Shown piece after piece: positions 1 through 16,853 of a DNA stretch of 45,257 nucleotides. Position 1 is the first letter of the stretch, and the number at the start of each line of letters is the position of its first letter. Source of the stretch: Aquiluna sp. GTDB taxonomy: Bacteria > Actinomycetota > Actinomycetes > Actinomycetales > Microbacteriaceae. A program made the translations under genes and the position numbers. The notes under the pieces are model-generated. The model was not told where the DNA came from and searched no databases. It saw only the letters and a list, made by a program, of their open reading frames with translations. The stretch covers positions 1-45,257 of the forward strand of contig JAYORB010000001.1 of assembly GCA_038123155.1 (NCBI GenBank). Direction: 5' to 3'.

Positions 1-1
1 T

Positions 2-772
2 GCGATGCTCACCCAAGAGCTCGAGAAGCAGCTCAAGGGCAAGAAGTACGACATCAGTGAGTGGTGGAAGTATCTCGATGGCCTCAAAGAGCGCTACCCG
101 CTGGGTTACAACGACCTAGAGGACGGCAAGCTCGCTCCGCAGTACGTTATCGAGAGAATCGGCCAGCTCTCCGGACCCGAGGCAATCTATGCAGCGGGTG
201 TGGGACAGCACCAAATGTGGTCTGCTCAGTTCATCAATTATGAGAATCCCAACACCTGGCTCAATTCGGGTGGTGCTGGGACCATGGGCTATGCGGTTCC
301 AGCCGCAATGGGAGCCAAGGTCGCGATGCCGGATAAGTTGGTTTGGGCCATTGATGGCGATGGCTGCTTCCAGATGACCAACCAGGAGCTTGCCACCTGC
401 ACAATCAACAACATCCCAATCAAGGTCGCAATTATCAACAATTCCTCTCTGGGGATGGTGAGGCAGTGGCAGACACTGTTTTATAACCAGCGCTACTCAA
501 ACACTGACCTCCACACCGGTACCGACACCGCAATGGTGCCGGACTTCGTGAAGCTTTCTGATGCCTATGGCTGCCTGTCGATTCGCGTTGAGAAGGTGGA
601 AGAGGTTGATGCAGCAATCAAGCTCGCGATGGAGACCAACGATCGGCCAGTAGTTATTGACTTCATCGTCGGACGTGACGCGATGGTTTGGCCTATGGTG
701 CCAGCAGGTGTGTCAAACGATGCGGTGCAATATGCTCGCGATGCGGCGCCGATTTGGGATGGTGAGGAGTAG
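2..772 (+). CDS. ilvB: Acetolactate synthase large subunit, C-terminal part (5' end lies outside the window)
   Basis: TPP-binding motif GDG..(N)N (IDGDGCFQM...INN), [15 protein letters not shown]; frame open from the window start; followed by ilvN and ilvC. Confidence 0.96.
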
Positions 773-774
773 TC

Positions 775-1281
775 ATGAGCCAACATGTGCTTTCTCTTTT
801 GGTTGAAGACAAGCCAGGTATCCTCACCCGAGTAGCTGCGCTGTTCGCTCGCCGCGGGTTCAACATCGAATCCCTTGCCGTTGGCACTACCGAGGTTGAG
901 GGCGTTTCCCGAATGACTGTGGTTGTAAACCTGGATGGCCAGCCATTGGAGCAGGTAACCAAGCAGCTAAACAAACTCGTGAATGTTCTAAAGATTGTTG
1001 AGCTGGAAGACAATGCATCGGTTGCCAGAGATCACATGCTCGTAAAGGTGAAAACTGACGCAGCCACCAGGTCACAGGTTTTAGAGGCCGTAACCCTATT
1101 CAGGGCGAGGGTAATAGATGTCGTCAGTGACTCCGTGGTAATCGAGGTCACCGGGGACAGCGCTAAGTGCAAAGCATTTATCAAGGTGCTCGAGCCGTTT
1201 GGCATCAAAGAGTTGGTCCAGTCCGGGGCCATTGCAATTTCTCGTGGATCAAAGTCCATGAGCGAGAAGGTTCTTAAGTAA
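775..1281 (+). CDS. ilvN: Acetolactate synthase small (regulatory, ACT) subunit
   Basis: LVEDKPGILTRVAALFARRGFNIESL and QVTKQLNKL motifs; operon context. Confidence 0.96.
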   Translation: MSQHVLSLLVEDKPGILTRVAALFARRGFNIESLAVGTTEVEGVSRMTVVVNLDGQPLEQVTKQLNKLVNVLKIVELEDNASVARDHMLVKVKTDAATRSQVLEAVTLFRARVIDVVSDSVVIEVTGDSAKCKAFIKVLEPFGIKELVQSGAIAISRGSKSMSEKVLK

Positions 1282-1295
1282 GAGCTTTTAGATAG

Positions 1296-2339
<1,044 letters not shown>

Positions 2340-2349
2340 TAGAAGGATT

Positions 2350-2380
2350 AGGACCCCGGGAGACCGGGGTCTTTTTCTTT
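2350..2380 (+). terminator. Intrinsic terminator of the ilv operon
   Basis: Stem AGGACCCCGG / CCGGGGTCTT with a GAGA (GNRA) loop, followed by a T-rich tract, 10 nt after the ilvC stop. Confidence 0.9.
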
Positions 2381-2387
2381 CGGCGAG

Positions 2388-2417
2388 TTGCTATACCCCT
2401 AGGGGTATTAGTAAACT
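2388..2417 (+). promoter_or_regulatory. Putative sigmaA-type promoter containing a CsoR/CstR-family operator
   Basis: TTGCTA (2388-2393), 18-bp spacer, TAAACT (2412-2417); perfect 16-bp palindrome ATACCCCTAGGGGTAT at 2393-2408 fills the spacer. Confidence 0.8.
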
Positions 2418-2450
2418 AGTGTGATTGACGTCTGTAGAAAAGGATTGTTT

Positions 2451-2570
2451 ATGTGCTCACAAGCTATTTGCTCAAGCTGCGGCAAGGTCACCTGGCAAGG
2501 TTGCGGCCAGCACGTCGAAGAGGCGCTGGCTGGTGTTCCAGAGTCACAACTCTGCACCTGCCCTAGATAG
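2451..2570 (+). CDS. 39-aa Cys-rich small protein MCSQAICSSCGKVTWQGCGQHVEEALAGVPESQLCTCPR (not in the ORF track)
   Basis: Translated by hand. ATG 2451 with an AAAGGA RBS about 7 nt upstream, TAG 2568-2570, own promoter/operator. The C-x4-C-x2-C-G-K-x-T-W-x-G-C-G-x-H...C-x-C pattern resembles a conserved uncharacterised small-protein family recalled from actinobacteria. Confidence 0.85.
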   Translation: MCSQAICSSCGKVTWQGCGQHVEEALAGVPESQLCTCPR

Positions 2571-2628
2571 CAATAAACGCTAGACTTAGCGGAAATCCCA
2601 TCACCGTTGATTTTCGTTAGGTCAGCTA

Positions 2629-4224
2629 TTGTCCAAACCCATAGTTCTGATTGCCGAGGAGCTGTCCCCGGCAACCGTTGAGGCGCTCGGTCCAGATTTC
2701 GATGTCCGAAATGTGGACGGGACCGATCGTGCTGCCCTCTTTACTGCGCTCGCAGATGCGAATGCTGTCTTGATTCGCTCCGCGACAAAGATGGATGCAG
2801 AGGCTGTCTCCAAGGCACCAAAGCTGAAGGTAATTGCCAGGGCTGGCGTCGGCCTAGACAACGTTGATATCAAAGCTGCAACCGAGGCTGGAGTCATGGT
2901 CGTGAATGCTCCGACCTCCAACGTGATTTCAGCTGCAGAACTCGCTATCGGCCACATCATGGCTCTGTCTCGCCACATCCCCGATGCACACGCATCCTTG
3001 AAGGAGGGCAAGTGGCTCCGGAGCAAGTTCACCGGGGTTGAGCTCTATGAAAAGACCATTGGAATCGTTGGACTGGGCCGAATCGGAACCCTGGTTGCTC
3101 AGCGCCTAGCTGGGTTTGGTGCGACTCTCATTGGCTACGACCCCTACGTAACCCAGGCACGAGCTGAGCAAATCGGGGTCGAACTGGTTGACCTGGACGA
3201 GCTTATGAAGCGCAGTGACTACGTCACGATTCACATTCCAAAGACCCCAGAGACTACCGGGATGATCAGCGATGCGCAGTTCGCTACCGCAAAGCCAAAC
3301 CTGAGAATCGTGAATTGCTCGCGCGGTGGAATCATTGACGAGGATGCCCTTTACAAGGCTTTGAGCTCGGGCAAGATTGCGGGAGCCGGGCTGGATGTGT
3401 TTGTTTCGGAACCCCCAACCGGATCTCCGCTGCTGGAGCTGGATAACGTAATTCTCACCCCGCACCTCGGGGCTTCAACCGACGAGGCTCAGGAGAAGGC
3501 AGGTGTTTCAGTCGCAAGGAGCGTCCGGCTCGCCTTGGCGGGAGACCTAGTTCCGGATGCAGTCAATGTTGCGGGCGGTGTAATCGACTCGTCCGTGAAA
3601 CCAGGCATCCCGCTTGCGGAAAAGCTCGGTCAGATTGTCGCTGGATTGGCCCACACTTCAATCGTCTCGGTTGAGTTTGAGGCACGTGGCGAAATCGCAG
3701 CTCACGACGTGACGGTTTTGAAGCTGGCTGCACTCAAGGGGCTCTTTCAAACAATGGTTACCGAGCAGGTCTCCTACGTAAATGCGCCAATCATGGCCGA
3801 GCAGAGAGGCGTCGAGGTTCGTCTAACTCAGGACACGGTGAGCGATGAGTATCGAAACGTCACGACCCTAAAGGCAGTTTTGTCAGACGGCACTGTGGTC
3901 TCTGCTGGCGGCACGGTAATCGGCCCAAAGCACCACCAAAAGGTTGTCTCAATCAATGGGTATGACGTTGAGCTTGCGATGGCTGACAACATGGTCGTCA
4001 TGGTCTACCAGGACCGACCAGGCATCGTCGCGATCTACGGCGCAGCTTTTGCAGACGCCAACATCAACATCGCTTCAATGACCATTGCTAGGCAGCAAAA
4101 GGGCGGTAAAGCTCTCAGCGTGATAACTGTTGACTCGCCAATTGCCCCAGAGCTCCTAGAAGGGCTAAAGAGCAAGATTCAGGCGGAGATGATGCGGGCT
4201 ATCTCGATTAGTGAGCAGTACTAA
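2629..4224 (+). CDS. serA: D-3-phosphoglycerate dehydrogenase (type I, with ASB and ACT domains); TTG start
   Basis: RAGVGLDNVD, GLGRIG, TPHLGAST, C-terminal ACT (DRPGIVA). Confidence 0.97.
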   Translation: MSKPIVLIAEELSPATVEALGPDFDVRNVDGTDRAALFTALADANAVLIRSATKMDAEAVSKAPKLKVIARAGVGLDNVDIKAATEAGVMVVNAPTSNVISAAELAIGHIMALSRHIPDAHASLKEGKWLRSKFTGVELYEKTIGIVGLGRIGTLVAQRLAGFGATLIGYDPYVTQARAEQIGVELVDLDELMKRSDYVTIHIPKTPETTGMISDAQFATAKPNLRIVNCSRGGIIDEDALYKALSSGKIAGAGLDVFVSEPPTGSPLLELDNVILTPHLGASTDEAQEKAGVSVARSVRLALAGDLVPDAVNVAGGVIDSSVKPGIPLAEKLGQIVAGLAHTSIVSVEFEARGEIAAHDVTVLKLAALKGLFQTMVTEQVSYVNAPIMAEQRGVEVRLTQDTVSDEYRNVTTLKAVLSDGTVVSAGGTVIGPKHHQKVVSINGYDVELAMADNMVVMVYQDRPGIVAIYGAAFADANINIASMTIARQQKGGKALSVITVDSPIAPELLEGLKSKIQAEMMRAISISEQY

Positions 4225-5866
4225 TTACTTTCGCTCGCTCTCTGGCATCCATGCCTGAGCGCCAGGTGGTGTAGCCGCCGTCTAGGTTTCTAACCTTCAG
4301 GCCGTGTGAGCGAAGCAGCTGTGTCGCCGTGTGGCCCCGCTGACCAACTGCACAGGTCACAATGAGGTCTTTCCCCTCCAGCTTTGAAATGTTGTCTCGC
4401 AGCGTATCGACTGGGATCAGGGTCGAACCCGGGATGCTTCCCGCAGAGTTCTCCTCACTGGTTCTCACATCTACAAGCAGCGCTCCCTCTTGCATGGCAC
4501 TCTCTAGCTCGTGCCACTGAATGCTTGGCGTCTTTCCTGAGAGTGAGTTGTTGCCAACGTAGCCGGTTTGATTGATGGCATCTTTTGCACTTCCAAAGGC
4601 TGGCGCGTATGCGAGCTCGAGGTTCATCAGATCATCCACGGTTAGGCCCGCATAGATGGCCGTGGCAATCACGTCAATTCTCTTGTCGACGCCCTCACGC
4701 CCAATGCCCTGAGCCCCCAGGAGTTTTCCCGTTTCGGGGTCAAAGAGCACCTTGACACTAAGCCTCTCGGCACCTGGGTAATAGCCTGCGTGGCTGGATG
4801 GGTGGAGGTGAATTACTCGGTGGGGAATCTCCATGCGAGTCGCAAGCCCTTCGGTAAGCCCGGTAAGTGCCGCGGCCATGCCGTAGGCACCGATGATTCC
4901 GGTTCCAATCGAGGGCCTAGAGCTAACTTCTTCACCTGCGATGACGTCAGCGACGAGCCTGCCGTGGCGATTTGCAAGGTTGGCAAGCCAAATCATTTGG
5001 GGTTCTCCCGTGAGGAGGCTGGTCTTCTCAGCGGCATCACCGACCGCAAAAATGTTCGGGTCCGAGGTCTGCATACGTTCGTTTACCGCAATGCCACCGG
5101 CCTTGCCAATTTCCAGTCCCGCATCAACGGCGAGCTGGTGGTCGGCGACAACACCAATTGCTGCAACTACCAGGTCAGCAGGAATTACCCTGCCGTCCTT
5201 GAGCCGGAGAGAGTCAGCAAGGACCTCCTCGGTCTCGGCACCAAGAGCCAGCTTGATTCCGTTTTCGACAAGAACTGCCTGCAGCGGCTCAATCATCTCT
5301 GGATCGAACTGGGGGAGGATGTTGTCCCTGAACTCCACGATCGTGGTCTCAATCCCTCGATCCCGGAGGTTCTCCGCTAGCTCGACTCCAATGAATCCAG
5401 CACCAATGATTGCCGCGGACTTGATTTTCTTTTCATCCACCAATTTCTTGATCTCAGTTGCATCCTGGACGTCTCTGAGAACCTTGGCTCGCTCGAGCCC
5501 TGGAATTGGAACCATTCGGGGCTTAGCACCGGTGGAGAGTACGAGGGAGTCAAAGCTCTCGAGGTATTCCTCGCCATTTTCCAGGTTTTTCACGGTCACC
5601 GACTTTGAGCCGCGGTCAATGTTTGTGACTCTTGAGTTGACCCGGACATCCAGGCGGAAGCGCTCTCCAAGGCTCTCCGGGGTCTGAAGCAGTAGGTCCT
5701 TCTCAGCAGGAATTACCTCTCCAATGTGATACGGCAGGCCGCAATTCGCATATGAAACGTGAGGTCCCTGTTCAAAGACAATGATCTCTGCATATTCGCG
5801 GAGCCTGCGGAGCCTCGTGGCGGTGGACATGCCTCCCGCAACGCCACCGACAATTACTACCTTCAT
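4208..5866 (-). CDS. CoA-disulfide/persulfide reductase-rhodanese fusion (CoADR-RHD, Npsr/CoAPR-like)
   Basis: GGVAGG FAD site, SYANCGLPY redox Cys, GAGFIG NAD site, LAYAP, C-terminal rhodanese domain DVR...CAVGQRG. Confidence 0.92.
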   Translation of the reverse strand: MKVVIVGGVAGGMSTATRLRRLREYAEIIVFEQGPHVSYANCGLPYHIGEVIPAEKDLLLQTPESLGERFRLDVRVNSRVTNIDRGSKSVTVKNLENGEEYLESFDSLVLSTGAKPRMVPIPGLERAKVLRDVQDATEIKKLVDEKKIKSAAIIGAGFIGVELAENLRDRGIETTIVEFRDNILPQFDPEMIEPLQAVLVENGIKLALGAETEEVLADSLRLKDGRVIPADLVVAAIGVVADHQLAVDAGLEIGKAGGIAVNERMQTSDPNIFAVGDAAEKTSLLTGEPQMIWLANLANRHGRLVADVIAGEEVSSRPSIGTGIIGAYGMAAALTGLTEGLATRMEIPHRVIHLHPSSHAGYYPGAERLSVKVLFDPETGKLLGAQGIGREGVDKRIDVIATAIYAGLTVDDLMNLELAYAPAFGSAKDAINQTGYVGNNSLSGKTPSIQWHELESAMQEGALLVDVRTSEENSAGSIPGSTLIPVDTLRDNISKLEGKDLIVTCAVGQRGHTATQLLRSHGLKVRNLDGGYTTWRSGMDARERAKVISTAH

Positions 5867-6198
5867 TTTCGTACCGTCCTAAGTCCTGCTCTTTGCCAGG
5901 CGACCATGCCGCCGGAAACATTTGTCACGTTGTAGCCCTCTTTTGTCAGCAGTGTTGCTGCCTGGGAGGAGCGCCCGCCCGAATTGCAAATAACCAATAT
6001 CTCTCGCTCTTTGGGAATCTCTTTGAGCCTGCGGGGGAGCACTCCCAATGAAATCAACTTCGCACCCGGTGCGTGGCCACTGCGATACTCGACGCTCTCC
6101 CTAACATCAAGCAGCATCGCACCAGCCTGGATGCGAGCCTCTGCCTCCTGCGGCGTAATCGAAGGAAACTTTGGTTTCAAAAAATCGAACAGTCCCAT
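5863..6198 (-). CDS. Single-domain rhodanese (sulfurtransferase)
   Basis: LLDVRE..EY..GH.PGA, active-site loop CNSGGRS, GGMVAW; 4-nt overlap with the CoADR-RHD start. Confidence 0.92.
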   Translation of the reverse strand: MGLFDFLKPKFPSITPQEAEARIQAGAMLLDVRESVEYRSGHAPGAKLISLGVLPRRLKEIPKEREILVICNSGGRSSQAATLLTKEGYNVTNVSGGMVAWQRAGLRTVRK

Positions 6199-6204
6199 AT
6201 GTTC

Positions 6205-6462
6205 CTAACTCAGTGCCAAAAAGGCTTTTTCGAGGCGCGCGCGATCCCTTTCGCCCTCTTCGCCGGTGCCGCAGTTCGAGATTCCAGATGCCAGAAGAGC
6301 AAAAGCGGCTTTGTTCACCGCGGAGTTGGCGGCAGCAAGCTGAGTCAGCACATCAGTGCAGTCTCTACCCTCGTCCAGCATTTTGATGATGCCCCCCAGC
6401 TGGCCCTGGGCCCTTGCGAGGCGCTTCTTTACAGCGTCGATTTCTAGTGCTGGAATCTCCAT
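6205..6462 (-). CDS. CsoR/RcnR-family (DUF156) repressor, CstR/Rv1766-like; start reassigned to ATG 6462
   Basis: RLARAQGQLGGIIKMLDEGRDC..V..QLAA...GISNC signature; a GGAG RBS lies just upstream of ATG 6462. Confidence 0.9.
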   Translation of the reverse strand: MEIPALEIDAVKKRLARAQGQLGGIIKMLDEGRDCTDVLTQLAAANSAVNKAAFALLASGISNCGTGEEGERDRARLEKAFLALS

Positions 6463-6480
6463 AACACGCTCCATTCGAAC

Positions 6481-6518
6481 TTGACTAAACAAACTCTAGC
6501 ACATACCCTAGGGGGTAT
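6481..6518. promoter_or_regulatory. Divergent promoter region with a CsoR/CstR-family operator
   Basis: Operator ATACCCTAGGGGGTAT at 6503-6518. Plus strand: TTGACT (6481-6486), 17 bp, TACCCT (6504-6509, inside the operator). Minus strand: extended -10 TGcTAGAGT (hexamer 6493-6498). Confidence 0.8.
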
Positions 6519-6533
6519 CTGAAAGGACACCCA

Positions 6534-6902
6534 TTGAAGCTTATGAAGACCCTTGCCGCTGGCATACTTGCTGTTGTCGCCATATTCGGACTAGCAGGAT
6601 GTGCACCGGAAGAAATGAACCCACAGGACTACGCAGCAGTAATTGACGTTCGCACCCCAGAGGAGTGGGCATCCGGCCACCTCGCTGGAGCAGTCCGCAT
6701 GGGTATTGCTGACAGTGACTTTGCCGCTCAGCTCGAGACTTTGGACAAGAGTGCCGATTACTACATCTACTGCCGCTCCGGTAACCGTGCTGGCCAGGCC
6801 ATCGATTTCATGGAGAGCATTGGCTTCACCGGAGAGCTGGTCAATGGTGGATCTGTTGCTAACGCGTCCGCTCAGCTTGGCCTTGAAGTGGTAACCGATT
6901 AG
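6534..6902 (+). CDS. Rhodanese-domain lipoprotein; TTG start
   Basis: AAAGGA RBS; basic N-terminus, hydrophobic core and lipobox LAGC; DVRT..EW..GH; active loop CRSGNRA. Confidence 0.9.
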   Translation: MKLMKTLAAGILAVVAIFGLAGCAPEEMNPQDYAAVIDVRTPEEWASGHLAGAVRMGIADSDFAAQLETLDKSADYYIYCRSGNRAGQAIDFMESIGFTGELVNGGSVANASAQLGLEVVTD

Positions 6903-7506
6903 CTCAGCAGATTGGGATAGGCGCTATGCCCAGGAGGCAAGTGTCTGGTCTCTAGAGCCAAACCATTTTGTTGTAAGTGAGCTGGGAGACCTCCCTCCCG
7001 GGCAAGTAGTTGACCTTGCCGGCGGAGAAGGCCGCAATGCGCTTTGGTTTGCATCGAGAGGCTGGCAGGCCGAGAACGTCGAGTTCTCAAAAGTTGCCCT
7101 TGAGAAATTTGTTGCAAGGGCCGAGGCACTAGAGCTTGAGAACCAATGTCGCGCTACTCATGCCGATGCCAAGCACGCCAAGTTTCAGCTCAAGCCGGAC
7201 CTGCTACTTATCTGCTACCTCCAACTGCCTTGGGCAGAGCTTGAGCAAGCCCTCGATAACGCACTTGACCAGCTTGGCGAGGGAGAGATCTTCGGGGTTT
7301 GGCACGCCTTGAGGAATGTAACCGAGGGTTTCGGCGGACCTCCATTGCCTGAGCTAAATGTCGATCCCGATAAGTTGAGCAGCTGGGCGGAATCGCGAGG
7401 TCTGATCTTTGATTGTCGAGAGCGGGAGCGGAGGGTCTCCAAGGATGGCGCTGAGGTGACCGCTATCGACGTGCAATTTAGGGCAAGCGCTGACAAAAGC
7501 GAATAG
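6898..7506 (+). CDS. Class I SAM-dependent methyltransferase (TehB/thiol-methyltransferase-like), about 202 aa, apparent ATT start; the ORF track shows only 7309-7506
   Basis: Hand translation gives [56 protein letters not shown]... with SAM motif [10 protein letters not shown]. In-frame TAA at 6892-6894; no ATG/GTG/TTG until 7309. Confidence 0.85.
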
Positions 7507-7534
7507 GGTTGTCTCAGAAAATTGTGAGGCAATC

Positions 7535-8560
7535 TTGAGCGCGCTGAATCTAGCTGTAATTCCAGGTGACGGCATTGGGCCGGAGGTAACCAGCGTTGCT
7601 CTCAGGGCTCTAGAAAAGGCTCTGGAAGGGGTTAGGGTCCAGACAACCGAATATGACCTTGGTGCAAACCGGTACCTAGCAAAAGGTGAAATTCTCACAG
7701 ATTCAGATCTTTCAAACCTGAAAAAGCACGATGCGATCTTGCTTGGTGCCATTGGTGACCCGAGGGTTCCCTCTGGTGTGCTGGAGCGAGGGCTGCTGTT
7801 GAAGCTGCGCTTCGCATTTGACCACCACATCAACCTTCGCCCCACGAAACTGTTTGCAGGAGTCAGCAGCGTGCTGTCGGGTGCCAAGGACATTGACTTC
7901 GTGGTTGTTCGGGAGGGTACAGAGGGTCCATACGTTGGTAACGGAGGTGCACTGAGGGTAGGCAGCGACCAAGAGCTTGCAAATGAAGTCTCAGTGAATA
8001 CCCACCATGGGGTCTCCAGGGCGGTCCGCTACGCGTTTGAGCTAGCGAACAGCAGAGAGCGAAAGCAACTCACGCTGGTTCACAAAACCAATGTTCTGGT
8101 GCACGCGGGAAAGCTTTGGCTAAGGCTTGTTGAGGAAACTGCAAGGGAGTTTCCAGAGGTTACCCACGACTACATGCACATCGATGCGGCAACAATTCAC
8201 ATGGTCAACTCGCCTGAGCGCTTTGATGTGATCGTCACGGACAATCTGTTTGGCGACATCATTACCGATCTTGCGGCAGCCATTTCTGGTGGCATAGGCC
8301 TGGCTGCTTCCGCTAACCTAAACCCCACTGGGGCCTTTCCCTCCATGTTCGAACCCGTTCATGGATCAGCTCCTGACATCGCCGGAAAAAATCTGGCCGA
8401 TCCAACCGCGGCAATCCTCTCCGCGGCACTTCTCGCAAAAACCCTCGGACATTCGAGTGCTGCGCAGAAGATTGAGAACGCAGTCTCTGATTACCTTGCT
8501 GGAAGCGAGAAAGCCTCCGGCACCTCAGAGATCGCAACGGCGATACTGGAGAAGATTTAG
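7535..8560 (+). CDS. leuB: 3-isopropylmalate dehydrogenase; TTG start
   Basis: [43 protein letters not shown]. Confidence 0.96.
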
Positions 8561-8563
8561 AAA

Positions 8564-9649
8564 ATGCAGTTTCAGGTTTCTGTAAATGAGAATCCGCTTG
8601 CGGCAGCTGAGCGTGAGCGCATTCTCGCCAACCCCACTTTTGGCACCCATTTCACCGACCATCAGGTAGTGATCACTTGGGAAAAGGACCAGGGTTGGCA
8701 CTCGCCTCAGGTGATTCCCTACGGCCCCATCGAGATGGATCCCTCGTCGGCGGTCCTTCACTACGGCCAAGAGATTTTTGAGGGCATCAAGGCCTATCGT
8801 CACCAGGACGGGTCAATTTGGACCTTCCGTCCCGAGATGAATGCTGCAAGGTTGCAACGGTCTGCAAAGCGCATGGCGCTCCCTGAGCTGCCGGTGGAAC
8901 TATTTGTGCAGTCGATGAAGGAGCTCATTGCACTAGATGGCGACTGGGTTCCAAGTCCTGAGGGTGAGAAGACTCTCTACCTAAGGCCTTTTGAGATTGC
9001 CGCCGAGAACTTTCTCGGGGTCAGAGCTGCGCATCGGGTCGAGTATCGACTCATTGCATCTCCCGTTGGTCCCTATTTCACCGGAGGCATAAAGCCTGTC
9101 TCGATTTGGATTGCCCTCGATTCGGCCCGTGCTGGCAAGCACGGCACTGGAGAGGCTAAGACCGGCGGAAACTACGCTGCCTCGCTACTCGCCCAGCAAG
9201 AGGGAAACGACAACGGCTGCTCACAGGTTATGTTCTTGGATGCTGAAACCTCGACCTACATCGAGGAGCTGGGCGGCATGAACCTGTTCTTCGTGCACTC
9301 AGATGGCAGCGTTGTAACCCCACCTCTGGATGGCACCATTCTTCACGGCATAACGAGAGACTCAGTCATTCAGCTTTTGAAGGACGGTGGCCACGAGGTC
9401 AAGGAACAGAAGATGTCACTCGATGAGCTGCGTCAGTCCGTCTCCTCAGGCAAGATCACAGAAGTCTTTGCCTGCGGCACCGCCGCAGTGATTACCCCCG
9501 TGGGGCTCCTCAAATCACGCGAGGAGGAAATCGTGATTGGTGGAAACGAGCCAGGAGCTCTCACTGTATCTCTGAGACAGGAATTGACCGGCATTCAGTA
9601 TGGAATGGTCCCTGACCGCCATGGCTGGATGGTCAAGCTAAGTAGCTAA
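8564..9649 (+). CDS. ilvE: Branched-chain amino acid aminotransferase
   Basis: LHYGQEIFEGIK, AKTGGNYA (PLP Lys), EELGGMN, CGTAAV. Confidence 0.96.
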   Translation: MQFQVSVNENPLAAAERERILANPTFGTHFTDHQVVITWEKDQGWHSPQVIPYGPIEMDPSSAVLHYGQEIFEGIKAYRHQDGSIWTFRPEMNAARLQRSAKRMALPELPVELFVQSMKELIALDGDWVPSPEGEKTLYLRPFEIAAENFLGVRAAHRVEYRLIASPVGPYFTGGIKPVSIWIALDSARAGKHGTGEAKTGGNYAASLLAQQEGNDNGCSQVMFLDAETSTYIEELGGMNLFFVHSDGSVVTPPLDGTILHGITRDSVIQLLKDGGHEVKEQKMSLDELRQSVSSGKITEVFACGTAAVITPVGLLKSREEEIVIGGNEPGALTVSLRQELTGIQYGMVPDRHGWMVKLSS

Positions 9650-10401
9650 TGCGAATCATCAGATTCAGCCAGGGTGAATCCACCAAGTACGGAGTCCTCG
9701 ATGGCGAGATAATCAACGAGCTCGAGGGTAAGCCGTTTGAAGCTATCCGTGAGACCGGCAACACCTATGAGCTAGAAGACGTGAGCCTGCTGGCCCCTGT
9801 GGAGCCAAAAAAGATTGTTCTGGTGGGTTTGAACTTCGCATCACATGCCGCTGAGATCCATCAGCAGACCCCGAAAGAACCACTTATCTTCTTCAAGCCA
9901 ACAAGTGCGATTGTTGCCAGCGAAGAGACCATCGAGCTGCCAGTGCAGTCAGGCCAGGTAGAGATAGAAGCTGAGCTGACGGTAGTAATTGGAAAGACCG
10001 CAAAGAATGTTCCTCAGGAGCAGGTGTCTGATCACATCCTTGGCTACACCATCGCCAATGATGTGACGGCGCGGGACATACAGTTCTCCGACCTGCAGTG
10101 GGCAAGAAGCAAGGCGTTCGACACCTTTTGCCCAGTCGGCCCCTGGATAGAGACCGAATTTGACCCGAGCAATAAGCGCATTAGCTCCACCATCAATGGC
10201 GAAACCAAGCAGGATGCAAGCACCTCCGAAATGGTTTATTCGCCTGAGTATTTGGTGTCCTACATCTCCCAGAACTTCACGCTGGAGCCGGGAGATATCA
10301 TCCTGACAGGCTCTCCTGCCGGCATCTCGAAGATTGCCTCCGGCGACAGGGTCGAGTGCACAATCGAGGGAATTGGAACTCTAGTCAGCTTGGTCAAATA
10401 G
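9649..10401 (+). CDS. Fumarylacetoacetate hydrolase family protein
   Basis: [38 protein letters not shown]. Confidence 0.92.
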
Positions 10402-10415
10402 GATTTCGGGTGACT

Positions 10416-11915
10416 ATGACTTCTCTAAACGCTCCCGTCACCCAGGCCCAAGGCTCAGACATCCGAGTTAGATTTTGCCCCAGCCCCACTGGCACCCCTC
10501 ACGTTGGCCTTATAAGAACTGCCCTGTTCAACTGGGCCTATGCACGCAAGACCGGTGGAACGTTTGTTTTTCGCATTGAGGACACTGACGCCGCTCGCGA
10601 TACTGAGGAGAGCTACGAGCAGCTGGTCAATGCCCTGCGCTGGCTTGGACTGGACTGGGACGAGGGAGTGGATGTTGGTGGCCCCGCTGGACCATACCGC
10701 CAGAGTGAACGCGGGCAGATCTACCTCGATGTGATTGAGAAGCTCAAGGCCTCTGGACACCTCTATGAGAGCTTCCTCACCGCAGAAGAGATTGAGGAGA
10801 GGAATAAGGCTGCCGGCAGAGCTGTGCAGCTGGGCTACGACAACTCTGAGCGCGACCTGTCTGAAGAGGATCGAGAACGTTACATAGCGGAGGGCAGGAA
10901 GCCAGCACTTCGTTTGAAGGTTCCCGCGGAAGACATCACCTTCACAGATCTAGTTCGCGGTGAGATTACTTTTCCCGCTGGTAGCTTTCCGGATTTCGTG
11001 CTTGTCAGGCCTGGGGGCCAGCCGCTCTACACACTGGTAAACCCGGTTGACGATGCCCTCATGGGCATCACCCATGTGCTTAGAGGTGAGGATTTGCTGT
11101 CCTCGACCCCGAGGCAGATTGTTCTTTACAACGCCCTTGTCGAAGCTGGCATCACAGACTTCGTTCCGCAGTTTGGTCACCTACCTTTTGTCATGGGAGA
11201 GGGCAACAAAAAGCTAAGCAAGCGCAACCCCGAGAGCAACCTGTTCCTGCATCGCGATCGCGGATTCATCCGAGAGGGTCTGCTGAACTACCTTGCGCTA
11301 TTGGGTTGGTCAATCTCTGCGGACAGGGACATCTTCACGCTTGAAGAGATGTGTGAGAACTTCGAGATTTCAGATGTCAACCCGAACCCGGCGAGGTTTG
11401 ACCAGAAGAAGGCAGATGCGATTAACGCCTCTCACATCAGGCTGCTCGATGGGAAGGATTTCCGTGAGCGCCTCATTCCCTACCTGCAATCCGCGGGTGT
11501 TATGAGCTCAACTCCGAGTGAGCGGGAGCAAGAGATACTCAACATGGCTGCACCGCTGATCCAAGAGCGAATCACTGTCTTGAGTGAAGCACCAGGAATG
11601 GTTGGATTCTTGTTCGCGAGCGAGATCAGCTTTGAAGAGGATGCTCTGAAGCAGCTTGGCGAGGATGCGGGAAGTATTGCAAAGCTTGCCCATGATACTT
11701 TGCTGGGGCTAGAGGACTTCAAAACCGATTCAATCCAGGCAGCACTCAGCGAGGCGCTGATTGAGAGGGCTGAGCTAAAGCCGAGGGTCGCGTTTGGTGC
11801 TGTTCGCACGGCTATCTCAGGCCGGAGGGTCACCCCACCGCTTTTTGAAAGCATGGAGATTCTTGGCAAGCAGGTTACGCTGGCGCGACTAGAGGCATTC
11901 TCAAAGGCCCACTAA
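10416..11915 (+). CDS. gltX: Glutamate--tRNA ligase (start ATG 10416 or GTG 10410)
   Basis: [12 protein letters not shown] (HIGH), RIEDTD, RGEDL, KLSKR (KMSKS). Confidence 0.97.
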
Positions 11916-11933
11916 GATAGAGGCTTGCGCCCT

Positions 11934-12005
11934 TGGGGTATGGTGTAATTGGCAACACGGAGGTTTCTGGTACCTTTGTTCTTGGTTCGAGTCCAGGTAC
12001 CCCAG
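11934..12005 (+). tRNA. tRNA-Gln(CTG), CCA not encoded
   Basis: Acceptor TGGGGTA/TACCCCA, anticodon arm GAGGT-TTCTGGT-ACCTT, T-arm GGTTCGAGTCC. Confidence 0.96.
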
Positions 12006-12027
12006 CAAGTAGATTCGGAAGCCTGAA

Positions 12028-12411
12028 ATGCTTGATTCTTTCGCTTCAGGTTTTCTAGTTTTTGCTTATTTCGCAACAGCTCTCTTTCAAATAGCGATCG
12101 TTTTTGGCGCGCCCCTTGGAGAGTATGCGTACGGGGGTCGCAACCCAGGTGTCCTAAGCACTCCATTTCGCATTGCAAGTGCCTTCTCGGCCCTGGTGAT
12201 GTTCGCGATCGCCGGCCACTACCTAGCTCAGCTAGGAGTTTTCACCCCGCTGCTTGATGAAGCTGGGAACTCAGTCGCCAACTGGGGATTCGCCGTGTTC
12301 GCGGGGCTAAGCGCGATTGCGAACAACATAACTAGAAGCGAGAAAGAAAAAAGGCTTTGGGGCGGAACAACGATTGCCATGCTCCTAGCCGCGGTTATTG
12401 TTGCGGTTTAG
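12028..12411 (+). CDS. Small integral membrane protein (about 4 TM), unknown function
   Basis: Four hydrophobic segments; FQIAIVFGAPLGEYAYGG motif; fills the gap with a 4-nt stop overlap. Confidence 0.75.
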   Translation: MLDSFASGFLVFAYFATALFQIAIVFGAPLGEYAYGGRNPGVLSTPFRIASAFSALVMFAIAGHYLAQLGVFTPLLDEAGNSVANWGFAVFAGLSAIANNITRSEKEKRLWGGTTIAMLLAAVIVAV

Positions 12412-13043
12412 ATTTCCCAGCTCTCACCGGCCTTTAGGAATCTAAATTCTCCGCCGTATTGCTCTGTTAGCTCCATGATTCTCGAGTTTTGAAGCTTGTG
12501 GCCATGCTCAGAAAGCAGCGCGTTGTGAGTGGGGAAGCATCTCTTTGGCTTTATTTCGACCAGGAAGTCCATCACGTCCGCAATCTTGAGCCAGGGTGCG
12601 CTTGATGGACAGGCCAGAGTTTGCACCTCCACCTCGGGGATTGTGTAGCTGTCACCCGGGTAGTAGAGCTCGCTATTCACCATTAGCCCAAAGTTCTGCA
12701 CCAAGGGTATGGAGCGGTGGATCTCTTGGTGAAAGTAGCCGTAAAAATCCAGCGTGAATCCATCAACCACGTGCCTGTCACCGTGGTAAACCCTTGTGAC
12801 ATTTAGGCCATTGAGTTTCTCAGCAACTTCTTCGGTGCCAAAGATTTGGAGATCTGGATTCTGCTTCAGCAAAGCCTCGACGTGTGGCCCATAGCTGTGG
12901 TCGTCGTGAACATGAGAGAGAGTGATAGCCACGGGGTTTGAAACCTGGGGTGGGGTTTCGGAATACATGCCCGGGTCAACTACCAGCTGTTTGCCTGCAA
13001 CCTCTAAAACCAGGCAGGCGTGCTCAAGCTTTGTAATCCTCAT
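12408..13043 (-). CDS. MBL-fold metallo-hydrolase
   Basis: HACL..DPG, HVHDDH (HxHxDH), YPGDS, PTH; GGAGG RBS. Confidence 0.9.
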   Translation of the reverse strand: MRITKLEHACLVLEVAGKQLVVDPGMYSETPPQVSNPVAITLSHVHDDHSYGPHVEALLKQNPDLQIFGTEEVAEKLNGLNVTRVYHGDRHVVDGFTLDFYGYFHQEIHRSIPLVQNFGLMVNSELYYPGDSYTIPEVEVQTLACPSSAPWLKIADVMDFLVEIKPKRCFPTHNALLSEHGHKLQNSRIMELTEQYGGEFRFLKAGESWEI

Positions 13044-13091
13044 GGCGAACCTCCGGCAATCAGTCTATGTTTGAGGCAACAGGAGGTGGCA

Positions 13092-13979
13092 ATGAAGCCA
13101 CTAGGAGTCATTATCAATCCGGCCGCCAACCGCGGGCGAGGGAACAGTGTCGGTGAGAAGGCGCTAGCTGCCTTTCAGCAAGCAGGTATTCAAACAATTA
13201 ACCTCAGCGGAGTAAGTCAGGACGATGTTCGCGAAAAAGTTAGGCAAAAAGCGGGCGAACTTTCCGGACTAGTCGCAATCGGTGGCGACGGAACCTCGCA
13301 GCTTGGGGTAAATCTGGCGATGGAACATTCGTTACCGCTGGGCTTGGTCCCTGCCGGCAGCGGTAATGATCAGGTTCGAGAGCTTGCAATTTCTCTTACC
13401 GACACCGAGGCTGCAGTGGCAAACATCGTTGGTGCAATTGAGTGCCCACGGGCAGTTGATGTGATGTGGGTAGAGACCGACTACAGGCAGTTCTGGTCGC
13501 TGGGCTCTATCTCTGCCGGGTTCGATGCTCTTTGTGCCGAACGGGCCAATCGTTTGGTTTGGCCTAAGGGACCCAACTCCTATGTTGCAGCTTTGTTTTT
13601 GGAGCTTCCCAGGTTCAAACCAATCAAATATCGGGTAGTGGCGGATGGAGAAACCAGAGAGTTCAAGGCGATGCTTTGCGGGGTTGCGAACGTAAAGAAT
13701 TTCGGTGGTGGCATGCAAATCTCTCCAAGATCTGAGATCACCGATGGCCAGGTAGAGGTCTTCATACTGCACGAGGTATCTAGAAGAAAGCTCCTTGAGA
13801 TCTTCCCCAAGGTCTACAAAGGCGAGCACGTTAGGTATGCAGAGGTAGAGATTTTCAAGGCAGCTAAGGTCCGAATTGAGAATGCGGGTTTCCCGATGAC
13901 CTGTGACGGAGAAATAATCGGGCCCGCCCCATTCTCAGTTGAGATAAGACCAGGTGGTCTCTCGCTTCTGAGCCGTTAG
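13092..13979 (+). CDS. Diacylglycerol/lipid kinase family (YegS/BmrU-like); start reassigned to ATG 13092
   Basis: INPAANRG, GGDGT, PAGSGND, FGGG; AGGAGG RBS before 13092. Confidence 0.9.
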   Translation: MKPLGVIINPAANRGRGNSVGEKALAAFQQAGIQTINLSGVSQDDVREKVRQKAGELSGLVAIGGDGTSQLGVNLAMEHSLPLGLVPAGSGNDQVRELAISLTDTEAAVANIVGAIECPRAVDVMWVETDYRQFWSLGSISAGFDALCAERANRLVWPKGPNSYVAALFLELPRFKPIKYRVVADGETREFKAMLCGVANVKNFGGGMQISPRSEITDGQVEVFILHEVSRRKLLEIFPKVYKGEHVRYAEVEIFKAAKVRIENAGFPMTCDGEIIGPAPFSVEIRPGGLSLLSR

Positions 13980-14026
13980 ATTGCCCATCGGGCTGGTTTG
14001 TGGCATGATTTCTAGGTTGCAACTAG

Positions 14027-14099
14027 GGCCCCATCGTTTAGCGGCCTAGGACGCTGCCCTCTCACGGCAGTAGCGCGGGTTCAAATCCCGCTGGGGTCA
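14027..14099 (+). tRNA. tRNA-Glu(CTC), CCA not encoded
   Basis: Acceptor GGCCCCA/TGGGGTC, anticodon arm CTGCC-CTCTCAC-GGCAG, GGTTCAAATCC. Confidence 0.96.
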
Positions 14100-14100
14100 C

Positions 14101-14144
14101 AAATCTCACTCTTGATGACAAAATCTCGGGAGTGAGATTTCTTT
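14101..14144. terminator. Probable bidirectional terminator between tRNA-Glu and the MFS gene
   Basis: AAATCTCACTC...GAGTGAGATTT 11-bp inverted repeat (extendable with G-U pairs) between convergent genes. Confidence 0.7.
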
Positions 14145-15381
14145 ATGTACGCCATCTTCTTAAGTAGGCGGTTGCGACCACTATCAACACCACGGGCAGT
14201 AGCGCCGCCGCGTTCAGGCCGCCAAAGGTGTAGAGGGTGAGGATCGTCCCCGACACTGCCCCACCAAAAGCCCCGCTGAGGCTCATCAGAGAATCGCTGA
14301 AGCCTTGAACCACCGGCTTCTGATCTACTTCCAACACCTCTGACAGCAGTGCGCTTGCCGCGACGGTCGCGGCCGACCAGCCAAGGCCAAGCAAGAAGAG
14401 TCCGATTACAACGAGCGTGAAGTTAAACTGCCCAAAGCCAGAGATGGCCAGTGAACACAGGAGCACAAACTGCCCCAGAAGAATGGTCTGCTTGGCACCA
14501 ATGCGATCGCTGAGAATTCCAAATACTGGCGCAAACGCATACATACCGGCAACGTGCAAAGAAATGGTGAAGCCGACTTCTGCGAGTGAATGGCCCTCTC
14601 CTGATAGGTGGGCAGGGGTCATGCTCATCACGGAGACCATAACCATGTGACTCAGTGCGATAGTTAGGACGGTGAAGGCAGCGAGGGGATTTCGTCTGAT
14701 AATTCCGATGGCCTCACTGCTTTTTCGCTGCGGTAGACCCTGCTCAATTCCAGCAACCTGCTGGGCCACTAGGAGAGGATCAGGGCGCAACCCAAACCAG
14801 AACACCAGGGTCGAAGTGGTCTGCGCAAAGATTGTCAGGAGGAAGGGCCCTGCTAGATGTGGCAGCCCGATGGCGAGACCCATCGCCTCACCCGGGGCAA
14901 TTAGATTGGGCCCAACTACCGCTCCAAGAGTTGTCGCCCACACCACAATCGAGAGATCTTTGCCTTTGGGCCTGCTCGTGGGTATGTCGGCGGCTGCAAA
15001 CCGCGCCTGAAGCCCCACTGCCGTTGCGGAACCTAGGAAGAAGAGTGCCACCAGCTCAACAGGAAAAGAGCGCAGGGCCGCGGCCAGCATCATCCCTGCG
15101 GCGCCGAGGATTGCAAGAAACGCACCTAGGGCCAGAGCTGGCCTGCGTCCCTTTCGAGCTGCGAGCCTTGCAAGGGGTATAGAGAGAAATGCGGCGCCGA
15201 GAGTGCTAAGGGTTGCAGCGGCTCCGCTCCATGCCGGTGTTCCGCTTAGCTCCGTGGCCATAATCGCGCCCACGGAGAGCGTGGCTCCGAAGCCAAAGCC
15301 CCCGAGAGCCTGGCCCAGTGCCAGGACTTTTACGGCCCTCGCCTGAATTTGGTTCAGGTCATGGCCAAGCTTCTGTTGCAC
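14143..15381 (-). CDS. MFS transporter
   Basis: About 12 TM segments; motif A-like RLAARKGRR and ILSDRIGAK. Confidence 0.9.
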
Positions 15382-15437
15382 CCCACCAATCTACTCCTTC
15401 GGCTAAACTTGCATGCCGGCGCACCTGCGAGGAGATC

Positions 15438-16853
15438 ATGTCTCAAAAACCCCTAACCCTGGCTGAAAAGCTGTGGCGCGACCACCTTGTGGTCAAGGGC
15501 GAAAACGGCGCGCCAGATCTTCTCTACATCGACCTTCACCTGATTCACGAGGTCACCTCTCCACAGGCTTTTGACGGCCTCCGGCTCGCCGGTCGTGACA
15601 TCAGGCGTAAGGACCTGACAATTGCGACCGAGGACCACAACACCCCAACCGCCGACATTCACCTCCCAATTGCGGAGCCCACCTCGAGAGCCCAGGTTCA
15701 AGCACTCAGGGACAACACCGCGGAGTATGGGGTGAGGATTCACTCTCTTGGAGATAAGAACCAGGGAATCGTTCACGTTGTTGGCCCGCAGCTTGGATTG
15801 ACAATGCCGGGACTCACCATTGTCTGTGGTGACTCCCACACCTCAACGCATGGAGCATTTGGCTCGCTAGCGATGGGAATCGGCACAAGTGAGGTCGAGC
15901 ACGTCCTTGCAACTCAGACTCTTCCGCTCAAGCCGTTCAAAACAATGGCCATCAATGTTGAGGGAACTCTGAGACCAGGGGTTTCCGCCAAGGACATCAT
16001 TCTGGCCGTGATTGCAAAGATCACCACTGGTGGTGGTCAGGGTTACGTCCTCGAATATCGAGGCAGCGCAATCAGGTCGCTCTCCATGGAGGGCAGGATG
16101 ACCATTTGCAACATGTCCATTGAGGCAGGTGCAAGGGCCGGAATGGTTGCTCCTGATGAGGTCACCTTTGAATACCTAAAGGGTCGCCCACACGCGCCAG
16201 AGGGTGCAGAGTGGGATGCCGCGATGGAGTACTGGAAGACCCTGAAGACAGATGAAGATGCGGTCTTCGATGCCGAGGTCTTCATCGACGCTGACAAGCT
16301 GGACCCATTTGTTACTTGGGGAACAAACCCCGGCCAGGGAGTCTCCCTACTCGACAGCGTTCCAGACCCCGCTAGCTATGAAGACCCCTCACTTCGGGCC
16401 GCTGCGGAGCGCGCACTTGAATACATGGACCTTGAGCCCGGTACGAAGATGAAGGACATCGCTGTCAACACGGTGTTCCTAGGCTCCTGCACCAACGCTC
16501 GCATTGAAGATTTGCGAGCTGCGGCCGAAATCATCAAGGGCAAGACGAAAGCCGAGGGTATTCGCATGATGGTGGTGCCTGGTTCTCAGAAGGTCAGGCT
16601 CCAGGCCGAGGAAGAGGGTTTGGACAAGGTTTTCAAGGACTTTGGAGCCGAGTGGCGGTTTGCAGGCTGCTCGATGTGCCTAGGCATGAACCCAGACCAA
16701 CTGGGTCCCGGAGAGCGTGCCGCATCCACCTCGAACCGAAACTTCGAGGGAAGGCAAGGCAAGGGAGCTAGGACTCACCTGGTCTCACCGGTTGTGGCAG
16801 CTGCGACCGCAATTCGCGGAACCCTCTCAAGCCCGGCGGACTTGGAGGGGTAA
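15438..16853 (+). CDS. leuC: 3-isopropylmalate dehydratase large subunit; start reassigned to ATG 15438
   Basis: [39 protein letters not shown]; GAGGAG RBS. Confidence 0.97.

What the first reader, a model, noticed from the sequence alone, without database searches (positions are those of the whole stretch)
2393..6518. Twin 16-bp operator 4.1 kb apart, each placed to block a promoter
Seen: ATACCCCTAGGGGTAT (2393-2408, perfect palindrome) and ATACCCTAGGGGGTAT (6503-6518) share ATACCC-N4-GGGTAT. The first fills the spacer of TTGCTA-18-TAAACT. The second contains the -10 of TTGACT-17-TACCCT on the plus strand and lies just upstream of an extended -10 (TGcTAGAGT) on the minus strand, so one site could repress both divergent operons. 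A by-eye scan found no third full copy in the window. Inference: these are the binding sites of the 6205-6462 regulator.
Basis: partly seen in the sequence, partly recalled or inferred. Interest (0 to 1): 0.7.

Follow-up and report, generated by a model that had tools for sequence, protein, structure and literature searches.

The report
Persulfide-repressor operators controlling a hidden microprotein
Two 16-base palindromes in this small aquatic actinobacterium match the known binding site of a sulfur-stress repressor encoded between them, and likely switch off both a sulfur-detox operon and an unnamed 39-amino-acid cysteine-rich gene whose family reaches fungi and animals.

Summary
Both sites are real. 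They are the only exact ATACCC-N4-GGGTAT copies in the 1.23-Mb assembly (0.03 expected) and fit the published ScCsoR site ATACC-N6-GGTAT. The one CsoR-family gene found in the assembly (6205-6462) has Cys-Gly-Cys at the X-Y-Z positions, the persulfide-sensing (CstR-like) type rather than the copper type. It sits with a CoA-persulfide-reductase homologue and two rhodaneses. Site 2 is conserved before the regulator in 15 of 15 genus loci, and both promoters proposed there are supported by comparison. Site 1 lies 42 nt before a 39-aa six-cysteine ORF (2451-2570) that the finding does not mention; serA seems to have its own -10. That microprotein family is large, has no Pfam or PDB match, and carries this operator or a sulfur-detox neighbour in 27 of 37 distant loci and 28 of 28 family loci. 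Operator and regulator are of a known kind; the microprotein's role is untested. This scan noted the same pairing three times before on other genomes (AI notes); I retested it here.

The parts
2350..2379 (+). Intrinsic terminator after ilvC; separates the site-1 promoter from the ilvBNC operon
   Evidence: 10-pair stem plus T tail
2388..2417 (+). Predicted promoter of the microprotein gene: -35 TTGCTA, 18 nt, -10 TAAACT
   Evidence: TTGC and TANNNT kept at the same offsets in 4 close relatives, one with TAGAAT; start site not mapped
2393..2408 (.). Operator 1 (perfect palindrome), between the -35 and -10
   Evidence: present before the microprotein in 11 of 18 genus loci
2451..2570 (+). 39-aa microprotein P0001: M-C-x4-C-x2-C-x7-C-G-x-H-x13-C-x-C; SD AAAGGA at 2439-2444
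   Evidence: pN below pS against 17 of 17 genus homologues; 701 clusters at 50% identity; 1919 proteins; no Pfam family above cut-off
2581..2586 (+). Predicted separate -10 (TAGACT) for serA
   Evidence: TANNNT at this place in 18 of 18 genus loci, with or without operator 1
2629..4224 (+). serA, phosphoglycerate dehydrogenase; neighbour, probably not a core target
   Evidence: TIGR01327 above cut-off
4208..5866 (-). CoA-disulfide/persulfide reductase with C-terminal rhodanese domain; Cys42 and Cys505 kept
   Evidence: E 1.5e-154 to 3ICR and 1.8e-143 to 8A56 CoA-persulfide reductase; Pfam
5863..6198 (-). Single-domain rhodanese
   Evidence: PF00581
6205..6462 (-). CsoR-family repressor, x-C-G-C type (Cys35, Gly60, Cys64), CstR-like
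   Evidence: PF02583; best PDB match is pneumococcal CstR 7MQ1, with Gly at the position of the copper-binding His
6493..6501 (-). Predicted extended -10 TGCTAGAGT of the regulator operon
   Evidence: TG, TA and final T invariant in 15 of 15 genus loci
6481..6509 (+). Predicted promoter of the lipoprotein rhodanese: TTGACT, 17 nt, TACCCT (-10 inside the operator)
   Evidence: TTGAC goes with the operator T in 11 of 11 loci, 0 of 5 without
6503..6518 (.). Operator 2, shared by the two divergent promoters
   Evidence: exact copy before the regulator in 15 of 15 other genus loci
6534..6902 (+). Rhodanese with signal peptide and LAGC lipobox (predicted lipoprotein)
   Evidence: PF00581; lipobox read from the sequence
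6898..7506 (+). SAM-dependent methyltransferase (TPMT/TehB-like hits), likely co-transcribed; no ATG/GTG/TTG start at its 5' end

Best explanation
The two palindromes are likely operators of the neighbouring CstR-like repressor, which would hold down a sulfur-detox operon, a lipoprotein rhodanese and a 39-aa cysteine-rich microprotein until reactive sulfur modifies its two cysteines. Shown here: the sites, their rarity, their conservation, the regulator's residue type and the gene contents. Inferred from studied relatives: the reduced repressor sits on both sites and blocks RNA polymerase, since site 1 lies between a -35 and -10 and site 2 covers one -10 and the -35 region of the opposite promoter. 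Persulfides or polysulfides modify Cys35/Cys64 and release it. The CoA-persulfide reductase and rhodaneses then clear sulfane sulfur, and the repressor is autoregulated. Operator 1 keeps the microprotein in the regulon although serA separates it from the operon. Least certain (about 45%): the microprotein is a small zinc-thiolate domain whose cysteines take up sulfane sulfur and are re-reduced by the rhodanese/reductase system.
For: Two exact sites in the genome against 0.027 expected. Exact motif in 24 of 41 relatives, reversed control in 1 of 41. ScCsoR binds ATACC-N6-GGTAT, is released by polysulfide through Cys37/Cys66 and has a site between its own gene and a rhodanese (PMC7533328); both sites fit and the 29-residue Cys spacing is the same. 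x-C-x-C actinomycete regulators are SSN cluster 3, candidate persulfide sensors (PMC8643695). Among 80 regulator loci: Y residue Gly 61, Ser 3, Glu 2, His 0, unparsed 14; operator 74; CoA reductase 62; microprotein 45; P-type ATPase motif 1. The operon resembles E. faecalis cst-like RhdA/RhdB/CoAPR (PMC9405070). Microprotein loci outside the genus: operator within 150 nt in 18 of 37, sulfur-detox neighbour within 1.5 kb in 18 of 37, either in 27 of 37; family sample 17, 19 and 28 of 28. Four annotated plasmid loci all hold the regulator plus sulfur-detox-type genes such as rhodanese, MBL-fold hydrolase, TauE or DUF302. In G018 the regulator cassette and both operators are missing together from one contiguous locus.
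Against: No binding, start-site or induction data; the inducer is inferred from residues and neighbours. 7 of 18 genus loci have the microprotein without operator 1, and 5 of those genomes keep the regulator. 10 of 37 distant loci show neither operator nor sulfur neighbour within 1.5 kb. Eukaryotic members exist, where no CsoR is known (recalled). G009 has an operator but no regulator was found (80% complete). Copper sensors use similar sites, and single loci have CueP or a multicopper oxidase nearby. Nothing here tests metal or sulfur binding by the microprotein; fold searches found no match.
Confidence: 0.85

Rival explanations
1. Copper circuit: the regulator is a CsoR/RicR-type Cu(I) sensor and the microprotein a MymT-like copper metallothionein.
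For: The best NCBIfam hit is RicR, 52 bits against a cut-off of 175. CsoR and RicR sites resemble the motif. The microprotein is Cys-rich, and one animal member has a His/Cys tail.
Against: The copper-binding His is Gly60, with His in none of 66 parsed relatives. Neighbours are rhodaneses and a CoA reductase; a P-type ATPase motif appears in 1 of 80 loci. Conserved Trp, Lys, Gly and a predicted sheet-helix fold are unlike a metallothionein (recalled).
Confidence: 0.05
2. Operator 1 exists mainly to induce serA by read-through, raising serine supply to fix sulfide as cysteine; the microprotein is incidental or a leader.
For: No terminator lies between the ORF and serA. The order microprotein-serA is kept across the genus. 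A long hairpin (z -5) over the serA ribosome site would form only on read-through RNA.
Against: serA has its own TANNNT in 18 of 18 loci. The operator follows the microprotein, not serA, outside the genus; serA is a neighbour in only 2 of 28 family loci. The hairpin is strong in 3 of 15 loci and has no consensus structure; it would block rather than help serA translation.
Confidence: 0.07
3. The operators are as described, but the signal is another thiol-reactive stress (peroxide, quinones, hypochlorite), and the microprotein is a general redox or zinc-release module rather than a sulfur sink.
For: CstR reacts with H2O2 in vitro, and the Asn-less actinomycete group may respond to other donors (PMC11672702). 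Thioredoxin, CMD, OsmC and SOD genes occur near some microprotein loci. The microprotein persists without the regulator in G018.
Against: The dominant neighbours are sulfur-specific: rhodanese, dioxygenase-rhodanese, TauE, CoA-persulfide reductase. ScCsoR is released by polysulfide.
Confidence: 0.15

Closest known systems
ScCsoR (SCO0620) sulfane-sulfur circuit of Streptomyces coelicolor; CsoR-family SSN cluster 3 (PMC7533328, PMC8643695)
   Same: 16-bp ATACC-N6-GGTAT site, two Cys 29 residues apart with no His at Y, site shared between the regulator gene and a divergent rhodanese, autoregulation.
   Different: Output here is a CoA-persulfide-reductase homologue, not a persulfide dioxygenase plus TauE. 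The divergent rhodanese is a predicted lipoprotein. A second operator controls a Cys-rich microprotein not mentioned in the passages I read.
CstR with the cst-like operon (RhdA, RhdB, CoAPR) of Enterococcus faecalis and Streptococcus mitis (PMC9405070, PMC8643695)
   Same: Same gene set: repressor, two rhodaneses, reductase-rhodanese fusion with both catalytic Cys; related operator.
   Different: Gly instead of the Asn wedge at Y. The S. mitis operator has 5 nt between the ATACCC/GGGTAT arms, here 4. Actinobacterial host; extra microprotein target.
Copper sensors CsoR / RicR (x-C-H-C)
   Same: Same Pfam family and a similar TACC...GGTA palindrome.
   Different: Copper-binding His absent; no copper ATPase in the locus.
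Cross-brace zinc fingers (HIT/AN1/B-box type) and bacterial metallothioneins (recalled, as analogues for the microprotein)
   Same: Six Cys plus one His in under 40 residues; predicted hairpin with a CxxC turn followed by a helix.
   Different: No sequence or fold match. Seven side-chain ligands, near-invariant Met-Cys start, and often an amphipathic or CaaX-like tail.

Membership tests
CsoR/RcnR family (PF02583) | Pfam profile above cut-off, about 90 residues | tested here: met
   76 bits against 22.8, 85 aa
CstR-like persulfide sensors (SSN cluster 3 type) | x-C-x-C motif: two Cys, no His at Y | tested here: met
   Cys35, Gly60, Cys64 by alignment to 7MQ1, 4M1P, 4ADZ; same in relatives
CstR-like persulfide sensors (SSN cluster 3 type) | Neighbourhood of sulfide/persulfide detoxification genes | tested here: met
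   CoA reductase-rhodanese and two rhodaneses; reductase in 62 of 80 related loci
CstR-like persulfide sensors (SSN cluster 3 type) | Operator ATACC-N6-GGTAT before own gene and targets | tested here: met
   both sites fit the motif of PMC7533328
CstR-like persulfide sensors (SSN cluster 3 type) | Sequence clusters with ScCsoR / Rv1766 | not tested
   those sequences were not in hand; assignment rests on motif, host group and neighbours
CstR-like persulfide sensors (SSN cluster 3 type) | DNA binding released by persulfide | not testable with these tools
   needs EMSA or anisotropy
Firmicute CstR (clusters 4 and 10) | Asn wedge at Y (x-C-N-C) | tested here: not met
   Gly60 aligns with the Asn of 7MQ1
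Copper-sensing CsoR / RicR | His at Y (x-C-H-C) | tested here: not met
   Gly60; RicR model 52 bits against cut-off 175
Copper-sensing CsoR / RicR | copA/copZ in the vicinity | tested here: not met
   none in window 1-16000; P-type motif in 1 of 80 related loci
CoA-persulfide reductase (CoADR-rhodanese) | Full-length homology with both catalytic Cys | tested here: met
   residues 2-536 align to 8A56 and 3ICR; Cys42 and Cys505 kept
Any named zinc-finger or metallothionein family (microprotein) | Profile or fold match | tested here: not met
   0 of 40 members match a relevant Pfam family; no PDB sequence or fold match; short models give weak searches
Any named zinc-finger or metallothionein family (microprotein) | Metal binding and stoichiometry | not testable with these tools
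   needs purified protein

The most novel reading that the evidence does not exclude
The 39-aa microprotein is a missing core component of persulfide detoxification: a small zinc-thiolate sulfane-sulfur acceptor or shuttle with a reactive N-terminal cysteine. It is shared by actinobacteria, fungi and some invertebrates, is often aimed at the membrane by its tail, and is wired to the CstR-type operator by several routes (inside the operon, behind its own operator, or as a leaderless gene whose ATG is the end of the operator).
Probability: 0.4. Interest if true: 0.7.

Novelty: new variant of a known kind. Interest (0 to 1): 0.42.

Why it matters
The operator and regulator type are published, so that part is ordinary and simply extends a CstR-like circuit to a streamlined aquatic actinobacterium. 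The useful result is the target of site 1. It gives a large unnamed family of mostly unannotated microproteins (no feature listed under 27 of the 30 plasmid hits shown) a regulator and a pathway, so a testable function. Since members occur in fungi and invertebrates, a sulfane-sulfur role would add a component to sulfur handling beyond bacteria.

Tried and rejected
Consensus promoter scan: no sites at its threshold; uninformative for these promoters. Third operator in the genome: the two 1-mismatch sites are inside ORFs and score about 12 bits lower; rejected. Fold of the microprotein: model pLDDT 80, pTM 0.45; no Foldseek hit at E 0.001 and no VIA-align hit at Z 2; the Atlas gave only unnamed clusters; profile search of PDB sequences gave only weak hits, best E 0.075. 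Homodimer with four zinc: no verdict, score 0.05; no evidence either way. Fusions: 55 longer proteins; the 16 records read look mostly like frameshifted or over-extended gene calls that join neighbours, so I did not count them as fusions. RNA runs: contigs of three metatranscriptome runs cover all or part of the microprotein gene, but contigs give no strand, start or level and may hold DNA; not used. Conserved RNA switch before serA: no consensus structure, 0 compensatory pairs; rejected as a genus-wide element. Literature: searches for family motifs and one accession, for Rv1766 regulon and for small Cys-rich proteins with sulfur terms found no description of the microprotein; the library lacks most subscription papers and I read no supplements.

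Full report
Observation. Both 16-mers are at the stated places. They are the only exact ATACCC-N4-GGGTAT copies in the 1,230,528-base assembly, against 0.027 expected from the two hexamer counts, and no other spacing from 0 to 12 gives a copy. A weight matrix built from operator-like sites in the fetched loci scores them 26.6 and 25.9; the next sites score 14 and lie inside ORFs. The exact motif occurs in 24 of 41 genomes searched, the reversed control in 1 of 41. The nearest named relatives are Aquiluna (Microbacteriaceae).

The regulator. 6205-6462 (-) is PF02583 and the only member found in the assembly, which is 86% complete. Against solved structures its best match is pneumococcal CstR; Cys35 and Cys64 align with the two CstR cysteines, and Gly60 sits where copper sensors have His and CstR has Asn. 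Fakhoury et al. (PMC8643695; passages and section 16 read) place actinomycete x-C-x-C proteins in SSN cluster 3 with S. coelicolor CsoR and Rv1766, as candidate persulfide sensors. A review (PMC11672702; passages) notes that these lack the Asn and that their donors are unknown. I did not test cluster membership by sequence. Lu et al. (PMC7533328; passages) report that ScCsoR binds ATACC-N6-GGTAT, is released by polysulfide through Cys37/Cys66, and has a site between its own gene and a rhodanese. Both window sites fit that motif. Among 80 loci holding relatives of the regulator, Y is Gly in 61, Ser 3, Glu 2, His 0, unparsed 14; 74 carry an operator, 62 the CoA reductase, and 1 a P-type ATPase motif (35 of the 80 loci are shorter than 10 kb).

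Site 2. It lies between the regulator operon (regulator, rhodanese 5863-6198, reductase-rhodanese 4208-5866, all minus) and a predicted lipoprotein rhodanese (6534-6902, plus), followed by a methyltransferase. The reductase aligns over residues 2-536 to E. faecalis CoA-persulfide reductase with both catalytic cysteines; that enzyme and two rhodaneses form the CstR-controlled operon there (PMC9405070; passages). All 15 other genus loci with the regulator carry an exact operator at this place. On the regulator strand TG-n-TA-nnn-T right after the operator is invariant in 15 of 15. On the other strand TTGAC lies 17 nt before TACCCT in all 11 loci whose operator reads ATACCCT, and in none of the 5 that read ATACCCC (16 loci with the window; kin are not independent). 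So one site overlapping two divergent promoters is well supported, though unmeasured.

Site 1. It follows the ilvC terminator and lies 42 nt before a 39-codon ORF at 2451-2570 with a Shine-Dalgarno sequence. The ORF is a gene: pN is below pS against 17 of 17 genus homologues, and it is found in 26 of 41 relatives, 29 of 301 phylum genomes and 58 of 151 family genomes, the window's own genome counted each time. TTGC-18-TANNNT is kept in the four closest relatives. serA, 58 nt downstream of the stop, has its own TANNNT in 18 of 18 genus loci, so the microprotein is the likely target; read-through is not excluded, as no terminator lies between them.

The link to the regulon holds far outside the genus. 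Of 37 loci from other genera (own locus, one duplicate and one locus that my motif did not match were left out), 18 have the operator within 150 nt of the start and 18 have the regulator, a rhodanese, dioxygenase, TauE or CoA reductase within 1.5 kb; 27 have either and 10 neither. In 28 family loci (the best-scoring loci returned; own and one duplicate left out) the counts are 17, 19 and 28. From the regulator side, 45 of 80 loci hold the microprotein, 14 with its own operator and many others directly after the reductase or after the divergent rhodanese. In 8 distant loci the operator's last AT is the AT of the start codon and TACCCT forms the -10, a predicted leaderless design. Of 51 operators before microprotein genes, 28 end in TAT-nn-T, a -10 overlapping the operator. 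Four annotated plasmid loci all hold the regulator plus sulfur-detox-type genes, three with operators. In G018 the regulator, rhodanese and reductase are missing from a contiguous locus together with both operators, while the microprotein stays (71% complete). Against a strict link: 7 of 18 genus loci lack operator 1, five of them in genomes that keep the regulator.

The microprotein family. 701 clusters at 50% identity, 1919 proteins; the names shown were 'hypothetical' or absent. Of 10 members I picked as eukaryote-like, named ones came from ascomycete, chytrid and mortierella-type fungi, a leech, a rotifer and a chrysophyte. Of 262 distinct cores, 253 start Met-Cys, 224 end the core in C-x-C and 29 in C-x-G-H; 62 have an amphipathic-looking tail and 5 a CaaX-like end by my patterns (the first four Cys and the His were part of the selecting pattern). 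The model shows two strands around the CxxC turn and a helix. There is no Pfam, PDB or fold match. My reading, by recalled analogy with cross-brace zinc fingers, is one site from Cys7, Cys10, Cys35, Cys37 and a second from Cys2, Cys18, His21 plus the free N-terminal amine, leaving reactive thiolates that could take up sulfane sulfur. This is untested.

Novelty. Operator, regulator type and operon are of published kinds. The microprotein target is not described in the papers or searches I ran (open-access library only, no supplements read). Three earlier AI notes of this scan report the same pairing in other genomes; I had recorded this reading before opening them, and they are not independent evidence. 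Verdict: real, a new variant of a known circuit; interest 0.42.

Noticed in passing
window 2570-2632 (+): The whole microprotein-serA spacer folds into one long G-U-rich hairpin (-24.6 kcal/mol, z -5.1) that buries serA's ribosome site and TTG start; strong in only 3 of 15 genus loci.
   Followed up: yes
window 6898-7506 (+): The methyltransferase has no ATG/GTG/TTG at its 5' end; the open frame begins CCG-ATT across the rhodanese stop. Three close relatives look the same, while four others have TTG, GTG or ATG. Possible ATT start or coupled translation.
   Followed up: partly
L061, L064, L066-L069, L075, L076: Operator ends in the AT of the microprotein's ATG, with TACCCT as -10: operator, -10 and start codon packed into 17 bp.
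   Followed up: yes
L085:3578 and L091:3690: In G010 and G009 a further operator lies before a small YgaP-like (PF11127) membrane gene next to typA; no homologue was found in G000. G009 has no regulator hit (80% complete).
   Followed up: partly
L113, L114, L118, L122, L125 and several of L145-L186: Two microprotein paralogues side by side: a short C-x-C form and a longer form with an amphipathic tail (C-x-G-H in L114).
   Followed up: no
L081, L083, L086, L088, L090, L093: A RibD-C/dihydrofolate-reductase-like gene lies just upstream of the microprotein in part of the genus; L086 also has a heliorhodopsin nearby.
   Followed up: no
L080-L090: Most relatives have a second single-domain rhodanese between the regulator and the reductase; the window has one, G016 none, and G002 lacks the reductase.
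   Followed up: no
P0060: The leech member carries a His/Gly/Cys-rich tail; five eukaryote-like members end in CaaX-like motifs.
   Followed up: no
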